Shown here in pieces: positions 1-33,046 of a stretch of 58,878 nt of DNA. A model generated the notes under the pieces. The model had not been told where the DNA came from. It ran no database searches and saw only the letters and a list, made by a program, of their open reading frames with translations. Both the position numbers and the translations under genes were made by a program. This stretch comes from Nemertoderma westbladi (lineage: Eukaryota > Animalia > Xenacoelomorpha), in contig JAUCBJ010007139.1 of NCBI GenBank assembly GCA_032718475.1, positions 1-58,878 on the forward strand, read 5' to 3'. Every line of letters begins with the position of its first letter. The first letter of the stretch is position 1.

Positions 1-2875
1 TTAAATTTAAATACGCAGAGTAATCTAAATAATAATTTTAATTCAAAAAGAGCAAAATAGTCCCGATTCTAATCCAAATATACAAAATAATTTAAATTAT
101 AATCCGAATTCAGTACAGAATAACTCCAATAATTTAAATAATTTAGAAAATAATGTTGATAATGATGCTATTAATATGAACGCAGCAGACGTGGGTGGTC
201 CGACCAGCTAGGGCCTGCAAGGCCACGTAGTTAATACGCAGGGAGTAGCGGGGGTGAGTCAACCCGACGGGAGTCTGCAAGACCACGCAGTGGTAGAGGG
301 AGAGGGGGGGTGAATAGACCCAGCCGCAGTAGAGATAGTGCGTCGACTAGAGAGGGGCGTAGAAGTGAAGTAAGAGATAGTCAAGTAATAGGTGGAGAGC
401 GGGGGGGGGGGGGGGGCTACATGCGCCCCACGACCAGAGATTAGTGGTGAGAGGGGGGGGGCAGAGAGTTTCCCACAGGCGTCGGCGGATAATGCGCGGG
501 GCGAGTTAGACGAACCGCAGCACCCGGCGATGGAGAATAGTAGGGGGATTATGAATATCCCCAGCGGCGTCCAACCGGCTAGAAAGAGAGGGGTTGGCGT
601 CGTAAGCGGGCGAGCGTCCAGCCCAGTCAGAAGAGGGAAGAAGAACAGTGGAGTTTAACCGGGAGGTCGATGAGAGATCTCACGAGCGGGGACGCTACAC
701 TGAAGAGAGAAGAAGAGAAGAGAGTAGAAGAAGCTTTGCTATGAGCGACTGGAGAGCGAGGACGGATAGCGAGCCGTCGGTGGTAGAGATGGAGTTGGAG
801 AGTCAGTGGGGTCGAACTCCGGGAGATTGCCGTCGCCCCGGAGGGACGCAGCCTGGCTAGATATATTATACGCCAAGAGAGGGGTACAGGACGTACCGAT
901 ACGAGGACGAGAACAGGAGAGGGGATCGAAGAGAAACTTCCTGACGGGATATAGCTGCCGATCGAGGGTACGGTAGTCGCGGGGAGGACTTCTTGGATTA
1001 TTTGAGAAGGTTAAACTTCGGTCCGGAGGGACACATACAGACTGCAGAACATACTGTAGGCCTTACTGCATATACTATAGGCCATGCTGGGAGAGATAGT
1101 GTAGGCGATAGGGTAGCGCGAACAACGGGATTAAACCCAGAAGTTGCAGAGTATATAGCGGTAGGTAGGCCAGAAGTGGATAGGCCTACACCGGTACCAG
1201 CACAGCAGTATGACTATAATATGCAGGGACATAACATATATCCAGGGGAGGGGAGAGTTATTGCGGATAGTTGTATGGGCCCAATATACTAACATCAACC
1301 CCAGTACCAAACATACCACCGGTGGGGGGGGGGGGGGCAGGGCGACATTTCCCCATTTCAATATCAACAATACACTCAAACAGAAATAAGAACATCGAAC
1401 CCCCTGGACGAGAACAGAACATGGAAATATGGAGGCGGCCGTTACCCCCAATGGTATATCCGACGCAACGAAAGACAGCAGGCTGGGTGGGCGGACCGCA
1501 CCCGATGGGAGAATCTGTACAGCATCCTTCGAACCCATTGGAAGTACAGGCAATGGGAATGGCTACGCTAATCGATGCGCTCAAAACCAGAATCGAGCTA
1601 CCACCCGTAGAGCCATTTATATTCGACGGAAGTAGGCCGGAAGAATACCTGCAATTCCGGTGCATGTACCGCAACGAGATATTAACCAAGAACCTGACGC
1701 AGGCGGAGTGCCTAAAATATCTACAGGTATATACAGGAAGCCCAGCGAACGACATCGTGAGGCAGTATCAGGGCATCGAGGGTGGCTTCATGACAGCATG
1801 GCGGGCCCTAGACAGGGAATACGGACACCCTGCCAAGATCATCCGGCAGACCTTAAGGGGTATAACATCGGGTGGCCTACAAGACAACCCTATTAGCATA
1901 AAGACCTTCTCGAACAAGGTTGAGAAGGCATTGATAGTGCGAATGATGCCATACGAACTCAACGCATCTAATAATATCACCATGATAGCGCAGGCACTGC
2001 TGATCTGGCTGCGCAATAAATGGAGAAAGATCGCCTTCTCCACCCGGGAGAAGAAGGGTGCGGAACCGGGCCTAGAGGAAATGTCGAATTTCCTCAACTA
2101 CGAGGCAGAGTTGATCACGGACCCAGTCTATAGCGAGGATAGTCTGGGGAGGGCGCCAAAGACCGAATATAATAGGCCGAAACCAGAACACAACACAGCA
2201 AATGCATTACCAAAACTTAGACAATCACTGCCATACGCGCCGACGCCGCAGGGGACTGCTAGTCCACATGTAGCCGGGGGTAGGGCCACACCATGGAGTG
2301 GACAGGGGCAAAATAACAACACAAACAAATATAACCCCAACACGCCCAGTAGGCCAAACCCAAACAATAAGAACAGTAGGGAACTAGGTATGAACATGAG
2401 TGCGATACGAAGCGCACTGTATAGGGACGGCTATAATCCAAACAACAAATGCCAATTGCATTCAAACGCACTTCATCAGACCATGAACTGCAGGTATTGG
2501 CCAGCGTTGCCCAAACAAGATCAAGTAGAATACGCAAGGAAGAGTGGAATCTGTCATCGATGTGTGGCGGGCGGACACAAAGCTGATCAATGCAAAGAAA
2601 CACCAATTAAGTTCGGTCAAGGCAAAGGGCAGACAATGGCGACAAGCACCGTAGGGGCGAAGAAAAGGGGAACGGTACTACTTGGGGTAGTGCCAGTGAG
2701 GGTGATAGGAGAAGGCAGTCGATCAGTAACCACGTTGATGCTGGTCGACAGTGGAGCAGCCTTCTCATTGGTGGAGAATTGGGTGGCCGAAGAGATAGGA
2801 CTAAAGACGAGGCCAAGTAGGATGGCGGTAACAACCATCTCCAGCAAAGATGAGGTCCTGGAGATGAGGACGTGA
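1..2875 (+). pseudogene. BEL/Pao gag plus aspartic protease N-part (frameshifted; main ORF 1271-2875)
   Basis: DUF1759-like capsid region, CQLHSNALHQTMNC and CHRCVAGGHKADQC knuckles, VLLGVVPVRV, MLVDSGAAFSLV; upstream pieces 392-658, 648-860 and 993-1292 match the gag N-part of copy 2. Confidence 0.9.
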
Positions 2876-2917
2876 CAGTGCGAGATAGCAGCGATAGCAC
2901 TGGGATGCGATTATGGG

Positions 2918-3988
2918 GTGACCATCGACCCCATCCAGGTAATAGAATCGATCATCATCAACGCCAGGCGACCAACCAACATCGAGGTCGAACAATACAG
3001 ATTCCTGGACAACATCGATTTCTTGATACCGGAGGTGGACGTCAGGAAGGAATCCATTATAGTGGGAATGGACTGCCCGATGGCCCACGAGAGAATGCAA
3101 ATGGTCTTCGGCGAAGACAGGCAGCGTGATCCGATGGCAATCCTCACGCCATTCGGATGGACGCTGACCGGCCCAATTAAAACCAATATTCCATTCAGTA
3201 TCTCCGAGACTTCAGGGTGCATGCTGCCAGGCACTGTTGAGGGGGTAGAAGAGAAACCAGAGATGGGCGATGGGGAGGTCCCACGTAAGAAGCGGCCCAA
3301 GGAAGGATACCAGGAGTCGGGTATGGATCTGGAAGCACGCATAGTGGGGCGTGGTGAAAGGATAGAGGATAGTTCCAGTGAAATACCGCCGGTAGATGAG
3401 CTAGAAGTGGAAGCAACACCAAGAGAGTGGGCAGTGGAGAATGGCTTGGATGCAGAAGATCCAGAGGCGATGGGATGGAACAAGGATGTTCCTGGCAACT
3501 ATCGGTATGAGGGTGGAGAAGAGTGGACGGCGAAATGTCCGGAGGAGTGCCCGGAGGAGTGTCCAGAGGAGTATCCGGAGGAGACGCCGGTCCGGTTGAG
3601 AGGCATACCGAAAAGGGGGAGGTCGAGTAAGAAGACAAGGTGGAAAGGGAGAGGATGTGAGAAGATTAGACCAGGGGCAGAGAAGCCCATGATTAGACGT
3701 GACAAAGGAGCCAGGAAAGTAGAAGGAGGCGTGTTGAACACGCACACGGGGCTGGCAGAGTGCGGGGGGGCATTAAATGGCAGGACATCATGTGTACCTA
3801 AGGATGACTGGGGATTATCGAGGGCTTTAATGCCAGCGCACATATTAAGGGGGAGGCCAGCAGAGGTAGCATGTAAGAGTAAGGATGACATCAGGGGCGG
3901 CATTATACCGCCAAACGACAAGTTGAAGGGTGGCGCTTTGCCACCAGGGGATGACCACGAGGAGATCAGTAATACAGTAATACAGTAA
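2918..3988 (+). pseudogene. Protease C-part fused to a collapsed pol remnant (no RT/RNase H; integrase C-terminal motif retained)
   Basis: IIVGMDCP...AILTPFGW matches copy 2, followed by an acidic low-complexity stretch and GLAECGGALNGR...ALMPAHILRGRP, resembling the BEL integrase 'EA.LNSRPL...LTP.HFL.GR' motif. Confidence 0.7.
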
Positions 3989-4140
3989 TAATATCAGTAA
4001 TAAAATAATAGATAGAAAGTTAGAAAGTTAGAAAGAGAAAGGAAAGTAATAGTACATAGTACATAGTATGTAGTAGTAAGTAAGTAGGCAGATAGAAGTT
4101 AGTAAGAGTTAGTAAGAGTTAGAAGTTAGTAAGAGTTAGT

Positions 4141-4570
4141 AGTAAGAGGGTACGTAGTACTGTTAGTGGAATTAGTTAGAGAGTAAGAGGGTACGTAGTA
4201 CCATTACTGGAGTTAGTTAGAGAGTAAGAGGGTATGTAGTACCATTAGTGGAGTTAGTTAGAGAGTAAGAGGGTACGTAGTACCATTAGCGGAGTTAGTT
4301 AAAGAGTAAGAGGGTACGTAGTACCGTTAGTGGAGTTAGTTAGAGAGTAAGAGGGTACGTAGTACCGTTAGCGGAGTTAGTTAGAGAGTAAGAGGGTACG
4401 TAGTACCGTTAGTGGAGTTACTTAGAGAGTAAGAGGGTACGTAGTACCGTTAGCGGAGTTAGTTAGAGATTAAGATGGTACGTAGTACTGTTAGTGGAGT
4501 TAGTTAGGGAGTGAGAGGATACGTAGTACCGTTAGTAGAGTTGTAAGAGGGTACATAGTACCGTTAGTTA
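4141..4570 (+). repeat. 41-bp minisatellite, ~10 copies, between pol remnant and ORF3
   Basis: Unit AGTAAGAGGGTACGTAGTACCGTTAGTGGAGTTAGTTAGAG starting at 4141, 4182, 4223, 4264...; flanked by AGTTAGTAAG short repeats. Confidence 0.95.
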
Positions 4571-5197
4571 GTAAGAGTTAGAGAGTTAGTAAGAGTTAGT
4601 AAGAGTTAGTAGGAGTTAGAGAGTTAGGGAATTAGTAGAATTAGAGAGTTAGTAGGGTTAGTGGTAAGAAGTGAGAGGGGGGCACATGGGTACAGCAGAA
4701 CAGACCATGTAGGCCGCATGAGACATACTACTGTACTGCAAAGCCCGTAGAGTAGGTCAGAATGTTTGATACAGGGCCAGGAGGTTACCTGGTGCAGACT
4801 AGCACAGTAAGGAATAGCTAGTCTACCCTGTATGCAAACCATAGACCCCTATAACAAATAGACAAATTAAACCCCTTAAACCCCTTAAACAAATAATCCA
4901 TTATAAGTATTGATAGCACAGTAATAGAATTAAAATTAATATCAAAATTAAAATTCAACAAATTATAGCAACAGTAGGCAGAAAATTCTAGAACATAATA
5001 AAAGTAGCTGACAGATTTAGGGAATTTAGGGAAATTTAGCACTTTAGGGGGTAAATAGGCAAATACAGCAAGAAAACCCACCGTTCTGAGAGAGATAGGC
5101 CATTATCGGACCACACAGACCATCCTAACTACATCACTCACCTATATTGAGCCTTGGCAAGGCACCACCTTGAGGTGAGCGATCGGGAGCGCTCGAA

Positions 5198-7486
5198 ATG
5201 GCGGAGAAACTTGTCAGAAAGAGAAAGGCGGAAATGGGTGGAGAGGAGATACTAGTAGATTTCACCGAGAGGCATCCGGAGGAGAAGATGAGGGGATACT
5301 ACGATCGGTTAGAGAAGGGTCACAAGGTGCGAGCGCTGCAGGACCATTTCAGGGAGGTGCACGAGAGGCAGCTGGTCGGGACCTACGGGACGCCATCGCT
5401 AGACAACGCGATCCTCGAGCATTTCCACTATGTGGTGAAGGGAGACGAGGCGAGGTTCGGGATACCGAAGTATCCGAGGGAACCATAGAGAAAGGACTGG
5501 AAGAGGTTCATAGAGTCCGTCAGCAGGGGAGGATACATGGTCCTGGACGACGAAGGGACTCTGGAAGACGACGAGGGTTCGAGGAGAGGGTCGGCGGCAT
5601 CGGCCAGAACCATACTTCTGCATTTGGCTGCGCCAAATGGGGACATATTCCTGTTTGATCTGGGAACGTATGGGAAGAAGAGCGGGCCGAAGCTAAACCG
5701 GTTGCCAAGGGAAGTGCAGAACGTAGTAAGGGAAAAGATGAAGGTAGGATCGGCGATCCGCGATGATGCAGGGAGGATCATCGGTCCGGAGACCCCCAAC
5801 CTCCTGGACATGCAAATGGTTTACATGGCTATGACAGGGCCAGCCGGGTTGGGACTAGTAGAGAACATAGGACATTGCGGAGCAGTGGTGATGGGCCATC
5901 TAATGGGGCTCGTCTGCCACAAGCTGATGGACTGGGGTAAATTCAGGGAGGAGTACGGAGCGGAGTTGGCGAACTCGCTGAAGTGGGGAGCGAGGCCGGG
6001 GAAACAGGACGTGTATCAATTCCGGAGAGGAGCGATAAAGATATATCAGAAGCGATATATCCTGCAGGAGGATTGGATAATGATAGGTTTACTAAACCTA
6101 TTCATGGCCGTGGTTATTGGAAGAGAGCCAACGGCGTTTCTGCTATCGGGATCACCCCTGAACTACAGAAGAGCCTTCAAAGTGGCCTTCGAGGGTCTGG
6201 CAGACCACCCGGGGCTGAAGGGTGAGTCAGTATACTACAACAGCCGATATCTAGTAGACAGGGAGGTGGATACACCATATCAGAGGTGGGAGAAGCTGGA
6301 GGCGGATAGACTAGAAGAGAAGCGATTGGAAGAAATCGCCAGATGAGAAATGAGGGAGGCAGACGAAAGAGAGGCGGAAGCTAGAGGAGAGGGCTACGGG
6401 TTTGAGGCCCAGGCCTTGGACGATTGGCAGTGGGCATCAGGGAGCTCTGGCGAGTCTCTGGGGCGGGAGTTGGGATGGACGGAAGAATTGCCGAAACAGT
6501 TGACATCTGGATTACAGGCGACGCTCATGCCAACAGGCGCCGAGGGCGATTTCGCAAAGAAAAGGCCAAGGGAACTAGAAGGATGGAAAGTTACGGGCGA
6601 GAGCCAAGGTGGGAAGGAACACAGTGGGTCTACCAGGATACCGGGTTTGGATCCACTCCCAGCGGAGGACGAGGATGATGACGAGTTTGGGGAGATGCCG
6701 CCCATCGAGAGAATCGGCCACTCAGACACGGACTGGGTTGGTGGGAGAGTGGTGATGGCCAGCGGGGCGAGGGCCTTCTGGGATAAACCCGGCAAGTGGG
6801 CCTGGGTGCATGAGGAGCCAGCGATGGATTTCGCGGGGAGCACCATCAGGTTGGGCGAGCAACCGGGAACGGCACCACAGCTAGTGTTCGTAGAGACAAT
6901 GCCGAGGCGAGACGAGGACATAGATATGGACAGAGATGTTAACGTCCAGAAGTTGCGACTGGAAGGACGACGAGGAGAAGTTTAGGATCTTCGAGGAGTG
7001 GGCCGATGACCCGTCATAATGCGGCAGTGAATGAAGGCCCTGGAATTCCGGTGGGGTTTCTTCAATATTAACCAGGAGGCCCACCTGGAAATCATTAAAT
7101 GGAGACTTCTGTTTACTTATCAAGAAGTAGCAACGGCGGCATCGTATGCTGGAGTGATGAATACACAGAGGTATTTAGATAGATGGGCGCCAGAGAACCG
7201 GGGAGAGTTCAGAGATTTCCTGGCGGAGGATGTGATCTTGTGGGATGCTACTAGGGGAAAGCAGCAGGGGCATTCGGAGGGGCCACCTGCGAAGAGATAC
7301 CGGGAGCTAATAACACCAGCGCCCAAGGAATCAACCACGGGAATCAGTAGGGAGGTAACGGCAAGGATGAGGAACCTTAAGGAGGACAAGAGCAAGGAAG
7401 CGGCGACAACCAGGAAGCGACCGAAACAGGACGACAACAGAGGGAAGGAACTGAGATGGTTCCCAAAGACGGGAGGAGCGAAGTAG
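5198..7486 (+). pseudogene. Retrotransposon ORF3: putative DEDDy (WRN/EXD/Mut-7-like) 3'-5' exonuclease protein, ~750 aa, with a few stops/frameshifts
   Basis: ORFs 5198, 5537, 6350 and 7031 share one frame. Motifs: GYMVLDDEG (ExoI DxE), ILLHLAAPNGDIFLFDL, LPREV..KMKVGSAIRDD (ExoII), NLLDMQ, W.ARP, QKRYILQED (ExoIII-like). Confidence 0.72.
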
Positions 7487-8226
7487 GACTCAGAGGGGGA
7501 GATGTGGGGATGCCTGGAAGGCACCACATGCGAAGTAATACGAACTTCTATGTGCAAACTTAATAAAAGTGCAATTAGTAAGTACGTATGTAATAATCAA
7601 TAGAGTATAATCATATAATCAATATACAATCAATATAATCAAAGTAAGTACTATAGTCATGTAACCTTTTCCCAATTAGCTACTGGGACTGGGGACCAAC
7701 TGACTATGACAGGACGGGACACTGGATGACTCACACTTCTTGAGTGCGACGGCACGAGAGGGGAAGGTGAGGCTCGTCAGGAGTGAGTGGAGCGAAACGA
7801 GTAGGGGTTGAGTACAGGAATGCAGTGGAGATAGTGAGAGGTGGTGTTGACGCGTGTGGAGAGAATATGGGTGCAATTCAAATGTGGGGGGCGAGGAGTA
7901 AGAGGCAGAGTGAGGGACAAAGTGGTCCAAAAGTAGAGTGGAGTTAGAGTGGAACTAGAGAAGTTAGAGTCAGTTTAGAGTAGAGTGGAGATATAAAATT
8001 GTATGAGAAGAGTCCACAATTGTCTCGAACCGAGATGCCAGATGTCTTGGTGCAACATAGGTTGCGGTTGCACCAAGAGGGGGTAGTAACATCATCCCTA
8101 GAGGGAGCGGCCTGGAAAGCCGACCCCAAAAAAAGAACTCCACCCCACACCCGATAGTAGATCGGGTTCCAGCGGAATTGAAGCGCACTTATGGGTGATG
8201 CTATCTTCTCACTGGGAAGATAGCAT

Positions 8227-8235
8227 GGGGGGGAG
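8227..8235 (+). promoter_or_regulatory. Polypurine tract of BEL copy 1
   Basis: GGGGGGGAG immediately before the TGTAATCGG LTR start. Confidence 0.85.
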
Positions 8236-8852
8236 TGTAATCGGATTCAGTTCCGCTGCATTACCCTCAAAAATGGGAAGTGGCGCATTTTCAGTAATAT
8301 GTTGGAGGTACGAGATTGGCAATAACCAATCTCGTATCACAATCCAACACTGGGGACAACAAAACCCCAAAGCCACACAAAGGGAGGTCAGAGGTCAAAC
8401 CACCTCGGGAGGGAAAATAACCAACAGGGGCCAATGGGGGGGGGGGGGGAGGGGAAGCACTCCCAGAGAGGTGAGAGGCGTGAAGTAGATTATCAGCCAA
8501 TAGTGGCGGGGGAGAGCATCCACTGGATGAAAGACCACAGCAGCATAGGAGTGATTGCATATATTGTCAATACATATTACCATACCGGTTCAGTTACTCA
8601 GTCATCAGCTTAAGTGCAGACCGGTGACATTTTTCTCACCATCACCAAACGTCATCAACATTCAGACACATTGTTATATCAGTATACCGGTTATTCAGTC
8701 ATTGTGCTATTACATATATTATTATACAACACCAGGAGATAACATCGAACTCCCATATTTTCCGCAACAGCCTTGGCCAAACTGCCAGCACCCCTAAAGA
8801 CAACGGTGACGCGTAGTCAATCTATCCGGTCGGGATCCTTGATCCTGTCACA
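8236..8852 (+). repeat. 3' LTR of BEL copy 1 (~617 bp)
   Basis: Starts TGTAATCGGATTCAGTTCC, ends GATCCTGTCACA; both ends homologous to the LTR at 21027->18791, start homologous to 52640. Confidence 0.9.
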
Positions 8853-9517: not shown

Positions 9518-11000
9518 CACTCTCCCGGCCACCCAGTCTGTATCTGAGTGGCCGATCCTCTCGATGGGGGGCATCTCTCCAAACTCGTCGTCATCTTCCT
9601 CCCTTGCTGGGAGTGGATCCAGTCCCGGTATCCCGGTAGATCCACTGTGCCCCTTTCCGCCTTGGCTTCCACCCGTAACTTTCCACCCTTCCTGCTCCCT
9701 AGGTCTCTTTCTTGTGAAATCGCCCTCAGAGCCCACTGGCATGGGCATCACTTGCAATCCCGATGTCGACTGTTTCAGCGATCCTTCCATCCATCCCAGT
9801 TCCTCCCCCAGAAACTCGTCCGAGCTCCCTGATCCCCACCTTAGCTTGTCCAAGTCCTGGGCTTCGAACCCGTAGTCCTCTCCCCTTATGTTCGCCTCTC
9901 TCTCGTCCGCTTCCCTCCTTTCTCGCCTGTCGATTTCTTCCAGCCTCTTCTCCTCGACTCTATTCGCTTCCAGCTTATCCCATCTCTTGAATGGTGTATC
10001 CACCTCTCTGTCTACTTGGTGCTGGCTATCGTAGTACACCGACTCGCCCTTCAGCCCCGGGTGGTCTACCAGACCTTTGAATGCCACCTTAAAGGCTCTT
10101 CTGTAGTTTAGAGGTTCTCCTGATAGCAGAAACGCCATTGGCTCTCTTCCGATAACCACGGCCATGAATAGGTTTAGTAAACCTATCATTATCCAATCCT
10201 CCTGTAGGATATATCTCTTCTGATATATCTTTATCGCTCCCCTTCAGAACTGATACACCTCCTGTTTCCCTGGCCTTGCTCCCCATTTCAGCGACTTCGC
10301 CAGCTCCGCTCCGTACTCCTCCCGGAACTTACCCCAGTCCATCGGCTTGTGGCAGACGAGCCCCATGAGCTGACCCATCGCCACTGCTCCGCAAAGTCCT
10401 GTGTTCTATACCAATCCCAACCCGTCTGGCCCCATCATGGCCATATAGACCGCTTGCATGTCGAGGAGGTTGGGGGTCTCCGGTCTGACGATCCTCTCCG
10501 CATCGTCGCGGATCGCCGATCCCACCTTCACCGTAGTCTTCTCCCTCACAAGGTCCTGCACCGCCCTTGGCAACCGGTTTAACTTCGGCCCGTAGTAATA
10601 TGGTTCTAGCCAATCCCACTGATCCTCTTCTCGAGCCCTCGTCGTCCTCCTCAGTCCCCTCGTCGTCTAGGACCATGTATCCGCCCCTACTCACAGACTC
10701 TACAAACCTCTTCCATTCCTTTCTTGGTGGTTCCCTTGGATACTTCGGTATCTCTCCCTTCACTACGTAGCGAAAATGTTCAAGGATTGCGTTGTCCAGC
10801 GACGGCGTCCCATAGGTCCCGACTAGTCGTCTCTCGTGCATCTCCCTGAAGTGGTCCTGCAGCGCTCGCGCTTTGTGACCCTTCGGTGGCGGCTTGTAGT
10901 ATCCCCTTGTCTTCTCCTCTGGGTGCCTCTGCGTGAAATCCACTAGTATCTCCTTTCCACTCCTCTCTGTCTTTCTCTTCTTAACTAGTCTCTCCGCCAT
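9518..11000 (-). pseudogene. ORF3 (DEDDy exonuclease-like) of BEL copy 2, internally deleted and 3' truncated
   Basis: MAERLVKKRK...SRGGYMVLDDEGT and IGLLNLFMAVVIGREP...HSDTDWV match copy 1 ORF3; a deletion near 10593 shifts the frame. Confidence 0.8.
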
Positions 11001-11614
11001 TACAAACTTCCTCGCACTCTCACCTTATTAGTGGTGCCTTACCAAGGCTCAATTAGATGAGTAACATCTAATGGGATAGTCTGTATTTGTTCAGTAATGG
11101 CCTATCTCCAAGAAACCTTAATTTTATGCTGTATTTTTAAGTATACGTCCCCCAAAGTGCCAATTTCCCTAAATTTTACAAATCTGTCCGTTACTTTAAT
11201 TATGATTCTAGAATCATTTGCCTACTGTTACCATAATTTATTAAATTTTGCTCTTAATACTATTTTATTCTCTCTTAGTGTGCTAATATCGGTTGTGGCG
11301 GGTTATTTCTACTTAGATAACCCCTGTAGTTTGTATACAGGGAAAACTAGCTATTCTCTACTGTGCTAGCTTTGTACCAGGCAACTTCCTGGCCCTGTAC
11401 CAAACATCCTAAACTTACTCTATGGGCCGTGCAGTACAGTAGTCTGTCTCGTGCGGCCTACATGGTCTATCCTGCTGTACCCACGTGCCCCCCTCTCCCT
11501 TTCGTGGTGCTCTCAATGTCCACATCCTCTACGGTACTACGTACCCTACTACTAGTCTTATGGTATACCTATATACCATACTCTTTACTCTCTTACTACT
11601 AACTTCTATTAAGC

Positions 11615-13812
11615 CTATTTTGCCGTAGCGTCCTGCGCAAGTTCTATTCCCACCGCTCTTGTGTTGTTGCTGACGAAGATAATGCCTTAGCGTTTCTCCG
11701 TGTGCCGCATCACCTTTATCTTAATCGGCTTGAACATGTCCATGCCGCAGTGCGTGAAGGGTGGGTTGTGTTGTCTCACTCTATTGGCCGGTAATGGCGC
11801 CATCTCCTATACGGCCCTCTCCTTTCTTGTCCGTCGGCAGGTCTGGCACTGCCTCACTACCACCTTCACCTTCTTCCTAAGTTGGGTGATCCAGAACATT
11901 CTTCGTATTTCCGTGAGGGTCTGATTTGAGCCTCCGTGTAGTATCGATTTATGTGAGTCCCAAATGATCTGGTGGACTATTGGTGATTTATTGGGGATTA
12001 TTATGGGCTTCGGTTGGATAACTAAGCTGTTGTTATTCACCACTCTGGAATTCATTACCAGAATCCCGTCGTCATTCAACTGTGGGGACAGCGTGTTGAG
12101 TTCGCTGTCTCGACAAAGGTGTTGTTGCTTGCTGACCCTGTCCACTTTGTCGGCGTACTTCTTTCCTTGCTTGTATCGTATTACGGCTTTAGCCGCTCCT
12201 TCCAGATTGACGGTTGGTTTCCTTTTGGCATCCTTGCCAAATCCCCTAAGGAAATCCCCGTAGGCCCTCAAATATGCTACCAACTTCTTAGTCTTATACC
12301 AGCTCGAGCTGTAACTGAGCAACCTGTCCATCGGATTATCACATGGTTCTTCTGATTTCGGTGGCACTTCCTTGATCTCCCTCACCATCTGGCTGTATAT
12401 CTCTTCCCCTTCTGAATCCTCCCCCTCCTCTTCTGCTACTACTTCCGCTGAGCCCGGGTCCACCTTCCTCATTGGTGGCCAGGCTGATCTATCATTCAGG
12501 AAGTGTGGCCCATGCTGCCACAACTCTTCCTTCTTTGAGAAAGTGTGGCGTCCCATGCCCCTCGATAACAGATCTGCTGGATTGTCGTCGGTAGGGCAGT
12601 AATGCCACCTTTCTAGGTCAGTCATCGCCCTTATCTTGTCTACCCTATTCGCGACGAATATAGGGTTATGTAGCCATCCGCCACACTAGCACTACCATGG
12701 AGTCCATCCAGCAGTGTGTCTCTACTATGTTGGGTATAGTATCCATCAAGTAAGCTGTGGCCCTTACTCCTAACCTCGTAGCTGTCAGCTCGAGTTTCGG
12801 GACTGACGCTGAATCTGGTGGCGTCGACTTCGCTTTACTAAATGCAAGTCTGGGCTTATGAGCCCCCTTTCGCTGTACCAAATAAAGTGCCGCTCCATAT
12901 GCTTCCAAAGATGCATCGGAAAACATGTGTAGATCCAGGTCCGTCATGTCTCCGTCCGGGAAATACACGCATGGCATGCTTTACATCCCCATCTGCTCTA
13001 GACTCCCCATCCACTTACTCCACTGTTTACTTATTTCTTCCGGTGCCTCCGTATCCCACGCATCCTTTAACTTGATTACTTTCTTTAGTATCTGCTTCCC
13101 CATGACTAACAATGGGGATGCCAGGCCTAGGGGATCGTATATCCTTGCTATGTATGATACATAGCCCCGCTTAGTGTGGATCTCTGCACCCTCTTGTCTC
13201 AGTTGATACTCCAACTCGTCCGTTTCACGGATTCACACGATCCCTAGCTCCTTCTTTGCCCTCTACCGTATCTCACACAGCCATAGTCGTTGTAAATGAG
13301 GACGAATTGGCCCCTATGTGTTGCAACACCATTTTGTACATCGGAATCACAGACGGTTCTTCATCGCCGTTGTACCATAGTAAGCGCAGACTGTCGCTGT
13401 CCTCTTCCGTCACACAGACTTGGTTGAACATGCCTTCAATGTCGCACGTGAAGGCATGCCTCCCATTTCTGAATCTCAACAGGACCTCTATTCCCGAGTT
13501 ATAGATGTTGGGGCCCTCCGGCAGATAGTCGTTTAGGCTCTTGCCATTCGTTTTGGCCGATGCGTTGACCACCATCCGCAGTTTACCCTTCTTTGGGTCG
13601 AAAGCCACGTGCAGTGGCAGATAGTAGGTTCTGTCCATGTTTGGCTCGTCGACCGGTAACTCCACGGCCCATCCCTTCTCAACGTATTTCCTGATCGTTC
13701 TGTGGATGTACTCGTCCTTCTCGGGGCTCCGTTTGAGTGTCTGCTTCAGTTTGCGAAGCCTCGTGAGTACCATCCCTTTGTTATCTAGCAATGGTAGTTT
13801 TGGTTGTTTCAC
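11615..13812 (-). pseudogene. BEL/Pao pol (RT with catalytic YxDD region deleted, RNase H, integrase Zn finger and start of core)
   Basis: ORFs 13273-13812, 12981-13214, 12666-12977 and 11807-12625; sequence jumps from 'GANSSSF' to the 'KELGIV' region; 'PFTHCGMDMFKP' near 11750, truncated ~11615. Confidence 0.92.
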
Positions 13813-16800
13813 ACCATTCCTATGGTGTACTTCATCGACTCCTTTACGCTCTCTATAGCTTGTTTATCTTCTACCAAGGTTCTGACCCCGGCCTCCTTCA
13901 ATCCTTCGAAGTCCTGCTTCAGCAGCCTCTTAAGCTGCTCCTCTGCTCCTTCGTCCCCCATCTCCCTCATTGTCCCTGCGAACATGCACCCTGATGTCTC
14001 CGACACCCTGAGTGGAATTTTGGTTTTAATTGGGCCGCTAAGCATCCATCCGAATGGTGTGAGAATCGCCATCACATCGCGCTGCCTGTTCTCTCCGAAT
14101 ATGGTCCATACTCTCTCGTGGGCTGTCGGACAATCCATTCCCACTATGATGGATACCTTCAAGACATCCACCTCCGGTATTGAGAAATCGATATCGTCCA
14201 GGAACCGGTATTGCTCGACCTCAATCATAGTGGGTCGCCTGGCGTTTATATTAATCGATTCTATTATCCGAATGGGGTCAATGGTCGCCCCATAATCACA
14301 TCCTGGTGCTATTGCTGATATCTCGCACCTTCCCATCCTCATCTCCAGGACCGCATCCTTGCTCGAGATTGTAGTTACCGCCATCCTACTCGGCCTCGTC
14401 TGTAATCTTATCTCCTCGGCCACCCAATTCTCCACCAGCGTGAAGGCTGCTCCGCTGTTGACCAGCATTGGTGTCGTAACTGATCGACCGCTTTCTCCCA
14501 TCACCCTCACCGGTACCACCCCGAGTAGTACCGTTCCCCTTCTCTTCGCTCCTATGGTGCTTGTCGCCATTGTTTGGCCTTTGCCTTGACCGAATTTTAT
14601 TGGTGTCTCCTTACACTGTTCAGCTCTATGTCCACCTACCACACATCGATGACAGATTCCACTTTTGTTCGCATATTCTTCCTGATCTTGTTTGGGTAAC
14701 GCCTGCCAATACTTGCAGTTCATGGTCTGATGGAGTGCGTTCGAGTGTAATTGGCATTTGTTTCTCAGATTATAGCATTCCCTATACAGCGCATTACGTA
14801 TCGCACGTATATTCATACTTAGCTGTCTGGCGTTCTTATTATTTGGGTTTGGCCTACTGGGCGTGTTGGGGTTATATTTGTTTGTGTTATTATTTTGTCC
14901 CTGTTCATGCCACGGTGTGGCCCTACCCCCGGCTATCTGTGGACTAGCAGTCCCCTGCGTCGTCACGTATGGTAGCGATTGTCTCAACTTTGGTAACGCA
15001 TTTGCCGTACTATGTTCTGGTTTCGGCCTGTTATATTCGGTCTTCGGCGCCCTCCCCAGACTATCTTCGCTGTAGACTGGGTCCGTGATTAGTTCTGCTT
15101 CGTAATTGAGGAAGTTCGACATTTCCTCTAGGCCCAGTTCCACACCTTTCTTCTCCCGGGTTGAGAAGGTGATCTTCCTCCACTTATTTCTTAGCCAGAT
15201 TGGCAGTGCCTGTGCTATTGTGGTGATGTTATTCACTGCGTTGAGTTCATAAGGCGCATCCAAGATCTTCAGCACAATCAGCGCCTTTTCGACTTTATTT
15301 GCGAAAGTCTTGATGTTACCACCTGATGTTATTCCCCTCAAGGTTTGCCGGATGATCTTGGCAGGGTGTCCAAATTCCCTGTCTAGGGCCCGCCATGCAG
15401 TCGTGAATCCACCCTCGATACACCGATACTGCCTTACGATATTGTACGCTGGGCCCCCTGTGTAAACTTGTAAATATTTTAGGCACTCGGCCTGTGTCAG
15501 GTTCTTTGTCAATATTTCATTACTGTACATACGTCGGAATTTCAGATATTCTTCCAGCCTGCTTCCATCGAATTTGAACGGCTCCACTGGTGGCAGCTCG
15601 ATCCTGGTCTTAAGTGCATTGATGAGTGTTGCCATTCCCATCGCCTAGTACTTCTAGTGGGCTCGATGGATGCTGTACAGATTCCCCTGCTGCTGGGTGC
15701 GGCTCGCCCGTCGACCTCTTCTGCGTTGGATATATCATTGGGGTTAACGGTCCCCTCCATATCACTGTGTCACATGATTTATTTTGATCCAAGGGGTTCG
15801 GGGTTTTTGTTCTCGGTTGAGTGTATTGCTGATATTGTAATGGGGGAATATCACCCTGCCCCCCCCCCCCCCCACCCTCCGGTGTTATATTTGGTATTGG
15901 TGTTGATGTTACCATGTTAGGGCCCATACACCTATCGGCAATAACTCCCCCCTCCCCTGGGTATATGTTATATCCCTGCATATTATAGTCATACTGGTGT
16001 GCAGACCTATCGGTATGTATGCCGCGACTTCCGGATCTAATCCCATTGTTCGCGCTACCCTATCGCCTAGACTATCTCTTCCAGCATGGCCTATAGTATG
16101 TGCAGTAAAGCCTACAGTATGTCCTGCAGTCTGGCTGTGTCCTTCCGGACCGAAGTTTAATCTTCTCGAATATTCCAAGAAGTCCTCCCCATGACTACCG
16201 TACTCTCGATCGACAGCTATATCCTGTCGGGAAGTTTCTCTTCGATCCTATCTCCTGTCCTCGTCCTCGCACCGGTACATCCTGCACCCTTCTCGCGGTG
16301 TGTGGTATATCTCACCAGGCTGCATCTCTCCGGGGCACGGCAATCTCCCGGAGTTCGACCCCACTGACTCTCTAACTCCATCTCTGCTACCGACGGTTCA
16401 CTCTCCGTCCTTCCTCTCCGGTTGCTCGCAGCAACGCTTCTTCTATTCTCTTCACTTCTTCTCTCTTCAGTGTAGAGATCCCCTTCGTGAGATCTCTCTT
16501 CGACCTCCCGGATAAACTCCACTGTTCTTCTTCTGTCTTCCGACTGGGCTCGACGTCTTGTCGCTTGCCCGCTCACAGCGCCAACCTTTCTCTCTCTACC
16601 CAGTTGGACGCTCCTGGGGATACTCGCAATCCCCCTACTATTCTCTGTCGTCGGGTGTCGTGGTTCACCTAACTCGCCCCGCGCATTATCTGCCGACGCT
16701 TGTGGGATATTCTCTGCCCCCCCCCCCCCTTCTGGCCACTAATCTCTCGTGGTGGGGTGCCCGTAGCCCCCCCCCCCCCCCCCCATCCGCCACCTCTTAC

Positions 16801-18723
16801 TTCGCTGCCTCTTACTTCACTTCTATACCCCTCTCTAGTCGACGCACTATCTCTACTCCGGCTGGGTCTACTCACCCCTGCCTCTTCCTGTGCGACTGCG
16901 TGGCCTTGCAGGCTCCCGTCGGGTTGACTCACCGCCGCTACTCCCTGCGTAACTACATAGCCTTGTAGGCTCCCGTTGGCCGGGCCATCTGCCTCCCCTG
17001 CATCCGTATTAATTGCACTGTTATTCGTAACATTATTATCTAAGTTATTTAAATTATTTAAATTATTTTGTTCAGAATTAGGGTTATTATTTGGAATATT
17101 TTGTACATTTAAATTAGAATTATTACTTAGGTTATTTTGCACATTTAAATTAGTGTTATTTGGAATATTTTGTATGTTTAAATTAGTATTATTTGGATTA
17201 TTTTGTACATTTAAATTAGTATTATTTGGATTATTTTGTACGTTTAAATTAGTATATTTGGATTATCCATATTTGGATTATTTTGCACATTTAAATCAAA
17301 ATTATTATTGCCGGGTAAAATATTATTTCCTGCAACAAAGGTTTGATTAGGGTTGTCTACTACGGTACTATTAATATTAATCCCTTCTAACGTATTAATA
17401 TTACCCCCCCCCCCGTCCGTCCATATGGTTACACCAGTCCTGGGTCTGTCGCCCGGTGCCTGTAAGTGGGGTATTAACAAACGTTTGCATTACTTCTGGC
17501 TCCTCGTAAACGCTACCCGAACCAGCCTCACTCTCCGATAATCCCAACTTCGCCAGTTCTAACCGGCGCTTTTGCTTCGCCTGGTATTGCATAAGTCCCC
17601 TTAACTGGGTATGCATATCATCCCGCATACCCTTTCCTGCTCTCTCTCTCTCTCTCTATCCTCTCTCAAACTTTGGTCGGCCAACTCTGCCTATCTCGCG
17701 ATCCGCTCTTTGTGCTCATTTTCTACTTTCGCCTCCCGTTCCTCGCACTCTTTACGCTCACTCATTTCTCTTTCCTCCCGTACCCTGCAGTTTCTCGCCA
17801 CCCTCTCGGCTCTCTCTCTACATTCCCTCGCTAACTCTCTCTCTTTCTCTAATAACGCGGTTCCCTCATCTAGTTGCCTCTCCAACTCCTTCTGATCCAG
17901 CGCCACAAGGTCTAATTGGCATGCCAGATCTATCTCTAATACCCTTCTTGCTTTTGCGGAGGATGTAGCAGACTTATCGGTCGCGACGGACTCCCGTCGC
18001 CTATCTGTCCTACTAACTTTCCCCCGATTTCTGGGGTTCTCGCTGACTGACGACACCGAATCCTCGGGGTTAACCTCAGGTTCGCTGTCGTGCCATCCCA
18101 CTAATTTAATTCCCCTTGCATCCACTATAATAAGGCCCTACGTACACTACGTCTGGCTCCATTACCCCGGACCGCCACAATTCAAACAGTTCCGTGGCGA
18201 CCCCCTTTGCTCTCTAACTCGCCAGTTCTCCCTGTCCAAAATGGACTAAATAGTGAAAATGTTTATTCGACTCATCTATCCTCTGATATAGTTTAGGCTA
18301 GTCTACCTTTCTCCTCTCCTTGGCCTCTTTAAGTAGTTTCTTGGTGGCGTTGTAGGTCCGTTGTAGTCGATCACTTGTCCCGACGTCCTCTTCGTCGACT
18401 CCACCTCCTCTCCTTGTCCGGTGTCGTACCGGTGGCCCCACCGTTGCCATTCCGGTGGGCCGTCCGTCGCCATTGGACTGTGGCTGGCCGGCGACTTCGG
18501 TACTCCGACTGCTGTCGTCGTCGCGCATCGACTCATCTCCCTCTCTTCTACGTAGTTGACGGTCGCCCTCCGCTTGGGCTACCGGATCGTCCCTCGTCGG
18601 CGAATCCGGTGTGGCAGGCTGATACTGTCGAGTCACGGCCTCACGGATCATTTGATTGGTGTCATCCGGAGTCCGCGGCGGCGTTCTCTCTCCCTCTGAT
18701 AATCGGGGCTCCCTGTCGCTCAT
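13809..18723 (-). pseudogene. BEL/Pao gag-protease of copy 2 (long N-terminal part with coiled-coil and Asn-rich repeats; frameshifted)
   Basis: ATG 18723 MSDREPRL; E/R coiled coil 17640-17900; capsid/knuckle/PR ORF 13809-15641 (protease Asp mutated, LVNSGA). Confidence 0.9.
17020..17330 (-). repeat. 33-bp coding repeat (NLNVQNNPNNT) within gag
   Basis: Plus-strand unit TTATTTGGATTATTTTGTACATTTAAATTAGTA repeated; homologous Asn-rich tract at 1-180 in copy 1. Confidence 0.85.
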
Positions 18724-18790
18724 CTTCCTGTCTTTGAAGTCACAGTTTGTTAGTTGTAGTAGGTGAGTTTATGACTCAGCAGTTTATGAC

Positions 18791-21027
18791 TGTGACGGGA
18801 TCCTAAGATCCCGACTGGGTTAGATTTGTAGGCGTCACCATTCTGCTGGGCAGTTGTACTGGGTTTGGCCAAAGGCCATCGAGGAAAAACAATAGAGTTT
18901 CTGATTCTCAATGTTTATACTCCAAGCGATAATAGCACAATCGGTAAATCATTTTTTTTTTTTTTTTTTTTTTTGGAAAGTACTAATTTATTACACCCTA
19001 ATATAATCTGACATTAATTGATATCTATAATACATCACAAACCTATCGGCGTAAATGTTATGGATACACTATCTCATCGCATACTATTTAACGCAATCCC
19101 AGCCTCGGCTACAGCCGCGCTCACGCCGGTCTCCCGCATCGTCTGTCTCGTTGCCAGCCTAGCCTTCGGCATCCGTGCACCCCTGAGGCACATGATAGAG
19201 GAACGGAGGAGGGCGAAACTCAACCGAGTCCTGATGAGGGAGAGAGTCTGCGAGTAGGGAGCGTCCTGTTTCGCCAACAGTAGGAGCGCGATGCGTGTGA
19301 GGAGCGCGTGGGCTGAGCGGCTGGCCCCACCAGTTGTAGCAATTACAAAAAGGCGAGAAGCCGGCGTGCTCGACGTCATTGATTCTCTCCTCATACTTCC
19401 TCCATTTCTCTCGCTCATGTTTGCTGTACCCATGTACTCATGTGCAGCATCCATGGAGCGAGGATTGGAGGAGCACAGAGGATTGAATACCTTGACGTCG
19501 ATATACACCCGCTCGAAGCGCCCACCCCACAGCCCACTCGCCGCAACGTCCAGACGGGCCTCCGGGTCTACCGTAGCAGATCTCAGGCGGAATGACTCGC
19601 CCTCAATCGGCTGGAGATGGGGTTCCACCTCGACGTCGTGTGCGACCTCGCTGAGGAGCTCGGCGAGGCAATCGCGGACCTCGTTGTGCCGCAGGATCGG
19701 GTAGGCTCCCATAGGGCAGTGAAGGGAGTGGGAGATGGTGAATACAGCACCGCAGGAGCAGTTGGCGGGCAGCCTCGGGGGCTCCCACCCAAATCGCAGA
19801 CACAACGCATCCCGGAAAGCGGATTTGTGTAGGGAAAAGTTGTATCTGGAAATGGGTAGGGCCAAGAGCCATGCCGACGCTCCACGCTCCTTCGCCAGTG
19901 TCTGATGGTAGAGGGCGTCTCCGGACAGTTGAGCATCAACCGCCACACATCGAGTCTTCACAGCCTCATCCTGCTCCTTGCGGATCTCACACAGGATGGT
20001 CTGCTGTATTGTACGAGCGGCTGGGTCCGAACACCGTAGGGGCTCGCAGAGTCGCAACGACTTCTCGTAGCTTTCCACCTCATCCTGAGGTTGATTTATT
20101 GCTAGCCCCCCTCCCTCACAGGGAGTGCCAGCAGCTGTCGTTCCGAAAGGCCAAGTGGGTATCTGCCAGTGAGTGTCGGGATGACTGTGCTGGAGAGCGT
20201 TTCCTCAACTCGATCCAAGTGACCGACTAACCCGGGTGTGGTGCGAGCCAAGAAGTTTACCTTCGGCTGTAAGCCACGGACCAGGCATCTATACGCAGGG
20301 TGGGGAGCATTCACTGCGAAATCGTTGAGGTGTTTTAGTTGGCGACAGATGACGTCAACTCGCTTCTCCAGATACCCAGCACAGTAGGATGTGGACCCTA
20401 TTACGGACCCCAGGACTCGATGACCATCGACCACTTCAACAGGGAGGCCAGAGAAAATCGCGTTGGCCTCTTCGCGCTTTGAGTTCTTCACAATAAGAAA
20501 TGCCTTTGTAAATCAAAGGCGGTAAATCAGTGATATCATGGTAAATTGGTAACAGCAGAAAATACACAGTAATATATGATGTTAGTGGCGGTGACGGTCA
20601 TAAACTATGACCAGTCTGCAACTGAGTAACTAATGAACTGACTGGTAAATCAGTAGTGCAGAATAATAAATGATTAACACACACGGATATTGATTTCACC
20701 TCTTACTATACTTGGCCCTCTGTACCCAGTGGATGCTTTCCTATCTCTAATCACGTGCTTCCCTCCCCGCTATTGGCTAATATACTAATTGTCACTTTGG
20801 CACTCCCTGTGAGTGTTTTCCCCCACTGGCTGTATTCCCTCCAAGGTGGTTTGACCTCTCACCTCTCTCTGTGGCGTTAGGGCTTGTGTCCCCCCCCCCC
20901 CCCCCCCCCCCCAATTTTGGTTATGAGGCGAGATTAATATTGGTAATTTCGTATCCCCAACTTATTGGTAAAATGCCACTGGTCCCATTTTCTAGTGGGT
21001 AATGAAGTGGAATTGAATCCGCTTACA
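18791..21027 (-). repeat. 5' LTR of BEL copy 2 (~673 bp), split by a CRE-like LINE
   Basis: Sense TGTAAGCGGATTCAATTCC (21027) ... GATCCCGTCACA (18791); pieces 18791-18951 and 20516-21027. Confidence 0.9.
18952..20507 (-). mobile_element. CRE-like non-LTR retrotransposon (restriction-like endonuclease), 5' truncated, poly(A) tail, 8-bp TSD
   Basis: RGASAWL.ALP, CSCG..HSLHC, RHNEVRD, RLDV...YIDV motifs; T23 at 18952-18974; TSD GTAAATCA at 18944-18951 and 20508-20515. Confidence 0.88.
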
Positions 21028-24567: not shown

Positions 24568-25021
24568 TAATTAGGGTAATCAATTAGCATTAGACAGCGG
24601 GAAATTTGAGTGAAATACGAATGAAATATAGTTAAATAAACCTGGACCGGTTGGTGGTAGCCTATATATATCAGTATAATAGGCCTACTGTATAATGGTA
24701 GATTTAATATTGTCATTGTTTACTGTTTTAGTTTTAGCAAAGTTATTGGTTTTTTATTATAGCATTAGTCCTCAGAGTTTTCAGTACAGTATACTGGTAT
24801 AATCTGAAGTAAATCCGCTATACAGTAGTATATAGCCTCCAGACTTGGTAATACCAGAATAGAATGCAACAATATAACGGCACCAGTACAGTCTGACAGT
24901 ATTATTATTATTGTTCTGATAGAACCATGAATCATCCAGGTTTGCCAGATTTTTTATTTACTTATTATATTCATTCAAGAAGCTAATCTCTATATCAATA
25001 TTTTTTTCTTTGTTTTTGCAG

Positions 25022-28000: not shown

Positions 28001-29463
28001 TATGTGCTTTACCAATGATGTACTTCCTACAGTTACTGTTTAGTGTTCCTGCACGGGCTGTAGCAGGTTGCTGTTTTATAAATGTTTTTATTTTCATTTT
28101 TACAACTTTGGTTATTGAGATCCCCATCCATATAGAATCATATAAATTACGTGAACGTCGTATTTTTGAAATACTTTATCGTAATACAACAATTATTCCA
28201 ACATACAATTCTTATACAGTTTTAAACCGAATTTACTTTATGAACCATGTCCATAATTTTGATAACATACTACAGTGGGAAAAACCTGGCATTGCTCAGG
28301 ATATTTTTGTTATGATATTAGAAGGGTTGTTATTATTTGTTATATTAGTTGCCATTGAAACTGGGTATTTCAGAAGATTTGAATTGTTCATCTTTTCAAC
28401 ACTTTTGAAGAAAAAATGTTTATTGCCACAGACCTTTATAGATGAAGATGTAGCCAATGAAATGAATGCAATAGATGCTTTAAGAAGTGATAAAAACAAT
28501 GTTGTGATTCTAGACCATTTGTGTAAAAAATACAGTAACTGTTGCAACCCACCCATTGTAGCTGCAAATAATCTTTGCTTGGCTATTCCTGCTGGCGAAT
28601 GTTTTGGACTTCTAGGTGTAAATGGTGCAGGTAAAACAACGACATTTCAGATGATAACAGGGGACATTTTAATGACCTCTGGCACTGTTTATTTGGGTGG
28701 GTTTAACATTCGAAACCAATTAGAAAGAGCCCAACAGCTGATAGGGTATTGTCCACAATTTGATGCTTTAATAGGTCAAATGACTGCTTATGAAACACTG
28801 CAGATGTTTGCTAGACTTAGAGGAATACCAGAGTGTGACATTCACCAAATGTGTGTTGATATAGTTTCGGAATTCACATTAGGGCCGTTTGCAAACAAAT
28901 TATGCAAAACCTACAGTGGTGGAAATAAACGAAAATTATGCACTGCCGTTGCAGTGATTGGTAATCCCCCAGTCGTATTTCTTGACGAACCAACATCTGG
29001 AATGGATCCTGTCTCCAAGCGTTCAGTTTGGAATGCGCTTTGTAGAGTTCGTGAAAAGGGAACATCCATAATAATTACAACGCATAGTATGGAAGAGTGT
29101 GAGGCACTATGCACGCGATTGGCAATCATGGTAAGAGGTAGTTTCAAATGTTTGGGGTCGCTTCAACATCTAAAGTCAAAGTTTGGCCAAGGGTATTCTG
29201 TCATGGCGAAAGTTAATACGAAAGGCGCAAGTTGTTTTGAAGACATTATTGTTTTAAAAGAATTCTTAGAGTCAAAGTTTCCTGGTGCTGAATTAAAAGA
29301 TGAACACCAGGGGATTGTAACATATCGAGTTACAAATAAATCAATAAAGTGGTCTGACATATTTTCATCAATGGAGGAAGCGAAAGAACAATTTAATTTG
29401 GAAGATTATTCTGTCACACAAACAACCCTTGAAGATGTATTTTTAGGATTTGCCGAAACCTAA
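25022..29463 (+). CDS. ABCA: ABC transporter subfamily A (ABCA3-like), terminal coding exon with TMD1-NBD1-TMD2-NBD2; N-terminal exon(s) not in view
   Basis: IVHEKELKLKEAMKIMGL; GKNGAGKTT/LSGGMKRRL/VFLDEPT; GVNGAGKTT/YSGGNKRKL/VFLDEPTSG; SVTQTTLEDVF. Polypyrimidine + TTGCAG acceptor ends at 25021 and the frame reads YSTLFLPVQEAID upstream of the annotated ATG 25132. Confidence 0.96.
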
Positions 29464-33008: not shown

Positions 33009-33046
33009 GAGTCTGAAGAAAGGCCTAGGCCAGAAAGTACTCACTT
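33009..33046 (+). ncRNA. Minimal hammerhead ribozyme in Penelope pLTR (mirror copy ~31360-31397, minus)
   Basis: GAGT CTGAAGA a-aggcctaggcc-a GAAA GTAC TC ACTT; palindromic AGTACT stem III. Confidence 0.65.

What the first reader, a model, noticed from the sequence alone, without database searches (positions are those of the whole stretch)
5198..7486. BEL/Pao retrotransposon carrying a DEDDy 3'-5' exonuclease-like ORF in the env position
Seen: a ~750-codon ORF between pol and PPT/3' LTR in copy 1, and its homologue in copy 2 (11000->9518). Motif order matches the WRN/EXD/Mut-7/RNase D fold: VLDDEG (DxE), LLHLA..IFLFDL, LP.....KVG.AI.DD, NLLDMQ, W..RP, Q.RYILQED (ExoIII spacing deviates from YxxxD). 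Differences around ExoI are all synonymous (gtc/gtg, agc/agt, gga/ggc, ctg/cta, gaa/gag), suggesting purifying selection, and the ORF survives in a copy that lost RT. Known: host enzymes of this fold act in small-RNA silencing and RNA trimming, and DEDDy cargo has been described in some rotifer retroelements; I do not know it as a standard BEL/Pao feature. Inference: an element-encoded anti-silencing nuclease, cDNA proofreader or primer-processing enzyme.
Basis: partly seen in the sequence, partly recalled or inferred. Interest (0 to 1): 0.88.

Follow-up and report, generated by a model that had tools for sequence, protein, structure and literature searches.

The report
BEL/Pao retrotransposon carrying exonuclease-like gene
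A many-copy family of BEL/Pao jumping genes in an animal genome carries, where retroviruses carry their envelope gene, a third gene kept by selection that likely encodes an enzyme trimming RNA ends and would help the element blunt small-RNA silencing; a similar cargo was described before in rotifer elements of other lineages.

Summary
The gene is real. Two decayed BEL/Pao copies in the window carry it. It follows the integrase in copy 2 and precedes the polypurine tract and LTR in copy 1. Between the copies dN/dS is 0.17 (gag-protease 0.13; shifted frames 1.1-1.3). It is not an open 750-codon ORF: copy 1 has five internal stops and an internal deletion; copy 2 is frameshifted and cut. Blind searches (Pfam, PDB sequences, 1.84 billion proteins, single-sequence AlphaFold) found nothing. 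A directed test against a WRN/EXD2-like PF01612 family gave moderate support: HHalign P 1.2e-4, above 66 of 66 shuffles, with ExoI, II and III aligned in order. The site reads D117-E119-D190-Y287-E291, so ExoIII has normal spacing with Glu for Asp. A model guided by that family matches WRN exonuclease (Z 12.6), which is partly circular. My odds: fold about 0.85, active enzyme about 0.6, anti-silencing role about 0.4. DEDDy ORF3s are known from rotifer Juno/Vesta elements; ten literature searches found none in BEL/Pao. Verdict: new variant of a known kind.

The parts
1271..3234 (+). Copy 1 gag (DUF1759, Cys/His knuckles) and aspartic protease; one stop at 2873-2875; 5' end of the element lies outside the window
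3235..3990 (+). Segment that stands in place of RT-RNase H-integrase in copy 1; similar to 40047-40708 of a third element
4059..4624 (+). 41-nt tandem array
4669..5197 (+). Non-coding spacer before ORF3, shared with copy 2 (79% identity, 16 gaps in 474 aligned bases, against 3 gaps in ORF3)
5198..7486 (+). ORF3 of copy 1: 762-codon span with five internal stops and a deletion near 6954 relative to other copies
5489..6133 (+). Putative DEDDy 3'-5' exonuclease domain (aa 98-312), stop-free in copy 1
5546..5554 (+). ExoI: D117, E119
5765..5767 (+). ExoII: D190, in a WRN/EXD2-type KVG..I.DD context
6056..6076 (+). ExoIII: Y287, E291 (at the Asp column), D292, W293
6347..6982 (+). Acidic low-complexity part of ORF3 (22% D/E, 24% G/P/S); dN/dS 0.18 over aa 384-520; likely disordered (inferred)
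7031..7486 (+). 151-codon C-terminal open piece, no Pfam hit; continuity with the upstream part in intact copies not shown
8227..8235 (+). Polypurine tract
8236..8852 (+). 3' LTR starting TGT; similar to 21031-20820, 52640-52916 and 18941-18791; exact 3' end uncertain
9518..11000 (-). ORF3 of copy 2: 62-nt deletion, two stops, cut at 9518 beside a LINE fragment
11590..15644 (-). Copy 2 gag-PR, partial RT, RNase H region (PF05380), integrase zinc finger and start of the core; RT and integrase are broken
18791..21027 (-). 5' LTR of copy 2, split by a poly(A)-tailed insertion at about 18950-20820

Best explanation
ORF3 is a selected third gene of a many-copy BEL/Pao family that likely encodes a WRN/EXD2/Nibbler-type 3'-5' exonuclease, which would be made from its own message and would trim or destroy RNA 3' ends in trans, most likely small silencing RNAs or their precursors aimed at the element. 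SHOWN: element type, position, purifying selection, many diverged copies, motif order. SUPPORTED by directed tests only (about 0.85): the DEDDy fold. INFERRED (about 0.6): catalytic activity, from acidic residues at all four positions plus the Tyr, kept in both copies. INFERRED (about 0.4 overall): RNA substrate and anti-silencing role.
For: Selection equal to gag-PR across all parts of ORF3. At the stop at 5486, over 99% of contig depth in four runs reads another letter (43, 32, 27 and 1 contigs), so this stop is peculiar to copy 1. HHalign to 78 bacterial PF01612 sequences: probability 54.6, P 1.2e-4, score 33.3, against at most 20.9 in 66 column shuffles and 14.0 reversed. A glocal profile score has z 3.9, with 3 of 1500 shuffles as high, and is best of 67 natural window tiles, 14.1 against 3.9. 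The copy-2 piece is best of 316 window segments in hmmsearch --max, 12.4 bits. MAFFT places all three Exo motifs on their columns unaided. The unguided model has strands at residues 16-19, 41-44 and 54-57 of the domain and helices where the guided model has them. The gene has its own ATG behind a 530-nt spacer and is not fused to Pol, which suits an accessory protein better than an RT proofreader (inference). Nibbler trims piRNA 3' ends (PMC13269885, passage). RICE1, with Glu at the last DEDD position, is an active RNase (PMC5451212, passages).
Against: No hit in Pfam at E<=1, PDB sequences, 5.8-billion-protein word searches or phmmer over 1.84 billion proteins. The unguided model has pLDDT 41 and no meaningful fold match. 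Copy 1 alone scores 1.7 bits in hmmsearch, below the best shuffle at 6.8, and 25.9% probability in HHalign. The template family was chosen after I saw the resemblance. The guided model (pLDDT 72, Z 12.6 to WRN) used that family as its alignment, and Foldseek gave it no PDB match at E<=0.001. The ExoIII Asp is Glu. RICE1 differs at other catalytic positions too and works without metal, so it is a loose precedent. Conservation of catalytic residues rests on two copies 87% alike. Nothing here shows substrate or target. In rotifers the DEDDy ORF3s showed no clear link to copy number (PMC5408684).
Confidence: 0.42

Rival explanations
1. ORF3 is an active 3'-5' nuclease that works on the element's own replication intermediates: trimming cDNA ends or primers, or clearing stray cDNA.
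For: The closest sequence type and top structural row are WRN-like, a DNA exonuclease. Rodriguez et al. suggest 3'-end processing of element RNA.
Against: ORF3 is not fused to Pol. The BEL/Pao descriptions read list only gag, pol and sometimes env, so the family transposes without such a gene. The WRN rank is partly set by the template chosen, and Nibbler and RNase D tie with it within 1 Z.
Confidence: 0.25
2. ORF3 is a pseudo-nuclease that binds RNA, like EXD1 or Egalitarian, and transports, shields or localises element RNA.
For: Glu for Asp at ExoIII and long insertions in the C-terminal half. Egalitarian-BicD complexes, one with I-factor retrotransposon RNA, and EXD1 are among the structural rows. 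Long charged flanks.
Against: Acidic residues at all four positions and the Tyr are kept at 16-25% identity to the template family.
Confidence: 0.18
3. The protein is real cargo but not of the DEDD fold; the motif match is chance in an alpha/beta domain.
For: All blind searches are empty. P values of 1e-3 to 1e-4 come from one chosen template.
Against: Five motifs and three catalytic blocks align in order. The score exceeds all 66 profile shuffles and all 66 other natural tiles.
Confidence: 0.13
4. ORF3 is a host gene fragment captured recently and drifting, or an env remnant.
For: Both window copies are broken.
Against: dN/dS 0.17 between element copies; no introns; contigs of many diverged copies cover it. 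The most hydrophobic 19-residue window (1.59) is the domain's last helix, and no other anchor is seen.
Confidence: 0.02

Closest known systems
DEDDy ORF3 of bdelloid rotifer LTR retrotransposons Juno and Vesta, and of Athena/Terminon elements (PMC5408684, parts 1-3 of 5 read and figure legends; PMC6431247, passages)
   Same: Stand-alone exonuclease-like ORF3 downstream of pol in place of env; one D-to-E change in the motif; function untested.
   Different: Host element is BEL/Pao (Juno and Vesta are Ty3/Gypsy-like, recalled). Motif is D-E-D-E rather than DEED. The gene is far more diverged (the rotifer ORFs show 'strong homology'), has long flanks, shows dN/dS 0.17 and sits in a many-copy family. 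Common origin not tested.
WRN exonuclease / EXD2 / Mut-7-Nibbler group of DEDDy nucleases (PF01612)
   Same: Motif order, KVG..I.DD ExoII context, Q..Y before ExoIII; guided model Z 12.6, rmsd 2.8 A over 153 residues to mouse WRN 2e6l.
   Different: No Pfam hit; ExoIII Glu; insertions between ExoII and ExoIII; encoded by a retroelement.
Belpaoviridae with env (ICTV profile PMC8742986, whole text; Atlas virus PMC9094657, passages)
   Same: gag, PR-RT-RH-IN order, third gene before PPT and LTR.
   Different: Third gene is not an envelope glycoprotein; the profile lists only gag, pol and env.
RICE1 of Arabidopsis (PMC5451212, passages)
   Same: DnaQ-like fold with Glu at the last DEDD position; acts in the small-RNA pathway; 5v5f appears in the Foldseek list.
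   Different: RICE1 also lacks the ExoI Glu and the Tyr and is metal-independent; it is a host enzyme.

Membership tests
BEL/Pao (Belpaoviridae) | Gag and Pol domains of BEL/Pao type | tested here: met
   DUF1759 above cut-off in both copies, Peptidase_A17 E 7e-19 in copy 2; the one RT hit carries PF05380 and PF18701
BEL/Pao (Belpaoviridae) | Pol order PR-RT-RH-IN | tested here: met
   Copy 2, in pieces
BEL/Pao (Belpaoviridae) | LTRs of 0.2-1.2 kb and a PPT of about 10 nt | tested here: met
   PPT 8227-8235, LTR from 8236; family LTR homology at both element ends. No single copy shows both LTRs.
BEL/Pao (Belpaoviridae) | PBS for tRNA-Arg or tRNA-Gly | tested here: inconclusive
   A PBS-like TGG stretch lies near 18835 in copy 2; no host tRNA was at hand (one search found none in the window)
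BEL/Pao (Belpaoviridae) | RT phylogeny within the family | not tested
   RT is partial; one homologue only
DEDDy 3'-5' exonuclease (PF01612) | ExoI DxE at the end of strand 1 | tested here: met
   D117, E119 in both copies
DEDDy 3'-5' exonuclease (PF01612) | ExoII Asp | tested here: met
   D190 in both copies
DEDDy 3'-5' exonuclease (PF01612) | ExoIII YxxxD | tested here: not met
   YxxxE with Asp one further on, in both copies
DEDDy 3'-5' exonuclease (PF01612) | Pfam score above the curated cut-off | tested here: not met
   No hit at E<=1; copy-2 piece none at E<=10
DEDDy 3'-5' exonuclease (PF01612) | RNase H-like DnaQ fold | tested here: inconclusive
   Unguided model uninformative; guided model fits but is partly circular; profile tests moderately positive
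DEDDy 3'-5' exonuclease (PF01612) | Two-metal 3'-5' hydrolysis | not testable with these tools
   Needs an assay
Rotifer retroelement DEDDy ORF pool | DEED motif | tested here: not met
   ExoII is Asp here; the change is at ExoIII
Rotifer retroelement DEDDy ORF pool | Clusters with Juno/Vesta/Athena ORFs in a tree | not testable with these tools
   Those sequences were not reached by any search
env glycoprotein | Membrane anchor and viral fusion-protein homology | tested here: not met
   Best hydropathy window is the domain's last helix; no Pfam hit. The stretch missing in copy 1 is unread.

The most novel reading that the evidence does not exclude
A BEL/Pao lineage carries its own deeply diverged WRN/EXD2-type nuclease with a D-E-D-E site and uses it as an enzymatic suppressor of piRNA/siRNA silencing. 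Together with rotifer and other cases, retroelements would have recruited DEDDy trimmers repeatedly as counter-defence.
Probability: 0.25. Interest if true: 0.85.

Novelty: new variant of a known kind. Interest (0 to 1): 0.58.

Why it matters
It extends exonuclease cargo in the env slot from rotifer elements to BEL/Pao, with clear purifying selection. The rotifer paper left catalytic activity and role undemonstrated. A naturally stop-free domain (5489-6343) can be assayed directly. If it attacks small RNAs, it would be an enzyme with which an animal retrotransposon fights silencing and might explain the family's high copy number.

Tried and rejected
Blind searches without a hit: Pfam, PDB sequences (one chance row, E 1.4), word-indexed protein searches near and longer, phmmer over 1.84 billion representatives, viral and metagenome contigs, plasmids (best row a Haloferax hypothetical protein, E 9e-3, not followed). 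Single-sequence AlphaFold and its fold searches were uninformative. The ESM Atlas gave no answer. No genome is held, so no intact copy, per-family dN/dS or host donor gene could be sought. No RNA holder was listed. No contig spans the whole stretch. An RT search for polyproteins with a fused exonuclease gave one BEL protein without one. Literature: ten searches showed no BEL/Pao exonuclease. 'Exonuclease' does not occur in PMC3118150, PMC2774666, PMC9094657 or PMC12440569 (term searches). In PMC11662393 and PMC5718144 (passages) and PMC6338049 (part 1 of 4) it is unrelated or points to the rotifer work. PMC11599104 was seen as a listing only. I have an unverified recollection that a nematode Cer (BEL-type) element was once drawn with an extra exonuclease-like domain; Malik et al. 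2000 is not held, so novelty within BEL/Pao is not secure. Repbase and GyDB were not searchable, and no supplements were read. Rejected: env remnant, drifting capture, chance ORF.

Full report
Observation. The window holds two facing, decayed copies of one LTR element, 76-84% identical, and fragments of two more. Copy 2 carries the homologue at 11000->9518 with a 62-nt deletion and two stops, and is cut beside a LINE fragment.

Element. Gag carries DUF1759 in both copies; copy 2 has Peptidase_A17 (E 7e-19) and an integrase zinc finger, and its one RT homologue carries PF05380 and PF18701. The element is BEL/Pao. In copy 2 the order is gag-PR, partial RT, RNase H region, integrase start, a 500-nt spacer, ORF3. 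In copy 1 RT, RNase H and integrase are absent, and ORF3 is followed by 740 nt, a polypurine tract at 8227-8235 and an LTR from 8236. The LTR is similar to the split 5' LTR of copy 2 and to 52640-52916 (end segment score 82 against at most 40 in 300 shuffles). The env position is therefore shown by the two copies together.

Selection. Over 485 aligned codons dS is 0.55 and dN 0.093 (ratio 0.17, bootstrap 0.13-0.23); differences by codon position are 47/56/134. The N-terminal part, the putative domain and the acidic part give 0.18, 0.15 and 0.18; gag-PR gives 0.13; the shifted frames give 1.26 and 1.14. The spacer has 16 gaps in 474 bases, ORF3 three in about 1500, two of them in frame. The gene was thus under protein-level selection as strong as gag while the two lineages diverged. 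This does not date selection to the time after RT loss.

Other copies. Three of six listed runs hold the stretch. On 4650-8600, 6891, 4771, 5033 and 74 contig pieces were laid, most 90-99% alike, covering 30, 30, 30 and 28 of 30 bins. This points to many diverged copies; depth is no copy number, X1 and X3 are one sample, and no piece spans the stretch. At 5486 over 99% of the depth reads another letter, so that stop is peculiar to copy 1; copy 2 has sense codons at the first two stops. Loose ends on both sides of 6954 in all four runs and a small indel near 7010 show that copy 1 lacks a stretch there. The three stops at 6983-7030 fall in or beside this disturbed part. What the missing stretch encodes, and whether the last 151 codons belong to the same ORF, stays open.

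Fold. Blind tests failed: Pfam, PDB sequences, two word-indexed searches, phmmer on 1.84 billion proteins, and single-sequence AlphaFold (pLDDT 41). I then ran a directed test. A recalled ExoIII motif fetched 120 bacterial loci, of which 78 gave a domain of 150 residues or more. Two of two checked are PF01612, and the best PDB relative of one is WRN. Against this family HHalign gave 54.6% and P 1.2e-4 over 62 columns, score 33.3, against at most 20.9 in 66 shuffles and 14.0 reversed; copy 1 alone gave 25.9%. hmmsearch --max ranked the copy-2 piece first of 316 window segments (12.4 bits) but gave copy 1 only 1.7 bits, fourth and below the best shuffle. A glocal score gave z 3.9, 3 of 1500 shuffles as high, first of 67 natural tiles. 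MAFFT with 42 of the 78 sequences aligned D117/E119, D190 and Y287/E291/W293 on the family's ExoI, II and III columns. AlphaFold on that alignment gave pLDDT 72, pTM 0.71, Z 12.6 to WRN (rmsd 2.8 A, 153 residues), with Pol I, Nibbler, RNase D and diDNase within 1 Z. Foldseek listed DEDD enzymes first, best E 1.4e-3 in PDB and 3.7e-4 in the viral library. This shows compatibility, not independent proof. I put the fold at about 0.85.

Mechanism. The ExoII context has Gly where NrnC has His, as in WRN, which points to the WRN/EXD2/Mut-7 side rather than RNase D or Rrp6. ExoIII has normal spacing with Glu for Asp and an Asp next to it. RICE1 is an active RNase with Glu at that position, though otherwise atypical (PMC5451212, passages), and the rotifer ORFs also carry one D-to-E change. 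I infer an active enzyme (about 0.6). The gene is separate from Pol, has long charged flanks, and is not part of the BEL/Pao gene set as described. I therefore favour an accessory protein acting in trans on RNA ends, against small-RNA silencing (about 0.4 overall), over work on cDNA or primers (0.25) and an RNA-binding pseudo-nuclease (0.18). No result here shows substrate or target.

Comparison. Rodriguez et al. (PMC5408684; parts 1-3 of 5 and legends) describe DEDDy ORF3s in rotifer Juno and Vesta elements and in Terminons, untested for activity. The ICTV profile lists only gag, pol and env for Belpaoviridae (whole text). Ten searches found no BEL/Pao case; one older paper that I recall as possibly relevant is not held. 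Two unchecked earlier notes of this scan report Rrp6-like genes in the same slot in other genomes, which suggests the arrangement recurs and lowers its surprise. It works like the rotifer ORF3s; it is not shown to be a member of their pool, and it fails the strict YxxxD and Pfam tests for PF01612.

Verdict. Real, selected cargo of a BEL/Pao family; probably a diverged DEDDy nuclease; function untested. New variant of a known kind; interest 0.58.

Noticed in passing
window 3235-3990 and 40047-40708: Copy 1 and a third, more distant element (66% alike in protease) both carry a similar segment in place of RT-RH-IN, although copy 1 is much closer to the pol-bearing copy 2; suggests an old non-autonomous layout or recombination. 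A 32-residue piece at 40184-40279 is 56% like ORF3's acidic linker.
   Followed up: partly
window 8800-8852 and 18845-18791: The 3' LTR of copy 1 runs on into sequence matching the PBS-like stretch behind copy 2's 5' LTR; copy 1 may share this LTR with a truncated tandem neighbour.
   Followed up: partly
window 15650-18770 (-): About 3 kb of broken coding-like sequence precedes DUF1759 in copy 2, with an Asn-rich 33-nt repeat and an E/R-rich coil; probably a very long Gag N-terminus. No Pfam hit.
   Followed up: partly
window 24931-29463 (+): An ABCA-type transporter in one uninterrupted 1510-codon frame, unusual for an animal gene of this family.
   Followed up: partly
window 31296-33110: 396-nt near-perfect inverted repeats flank a 311-codon ORF (31699-32634, +) that by eye resembles the GIY-YIG end of a Penelope-like element; no Pfam hit.
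   Followed up: partly
window 42522-46922 (-): A near-complete LINE: 1108-codon ORF2 (endonuclease and RT) and a 257-codon ORF1.
   Followed up: partly
window 47023-48555 (-): A 510-codon ORF with an Ala/Glu/Lys repeat and no Pfam family.
   Followed up: partly
window 18950-20820 (-): A poly(A)-tailed LINE-like 3' fragment has inserted into copy 2's 5' LTR.
   Followed up: partly
window 39226-39527 / 40721-41022: A 302-nt, 98% inverted duplication inside the third element's protease region.
   Followed up: no
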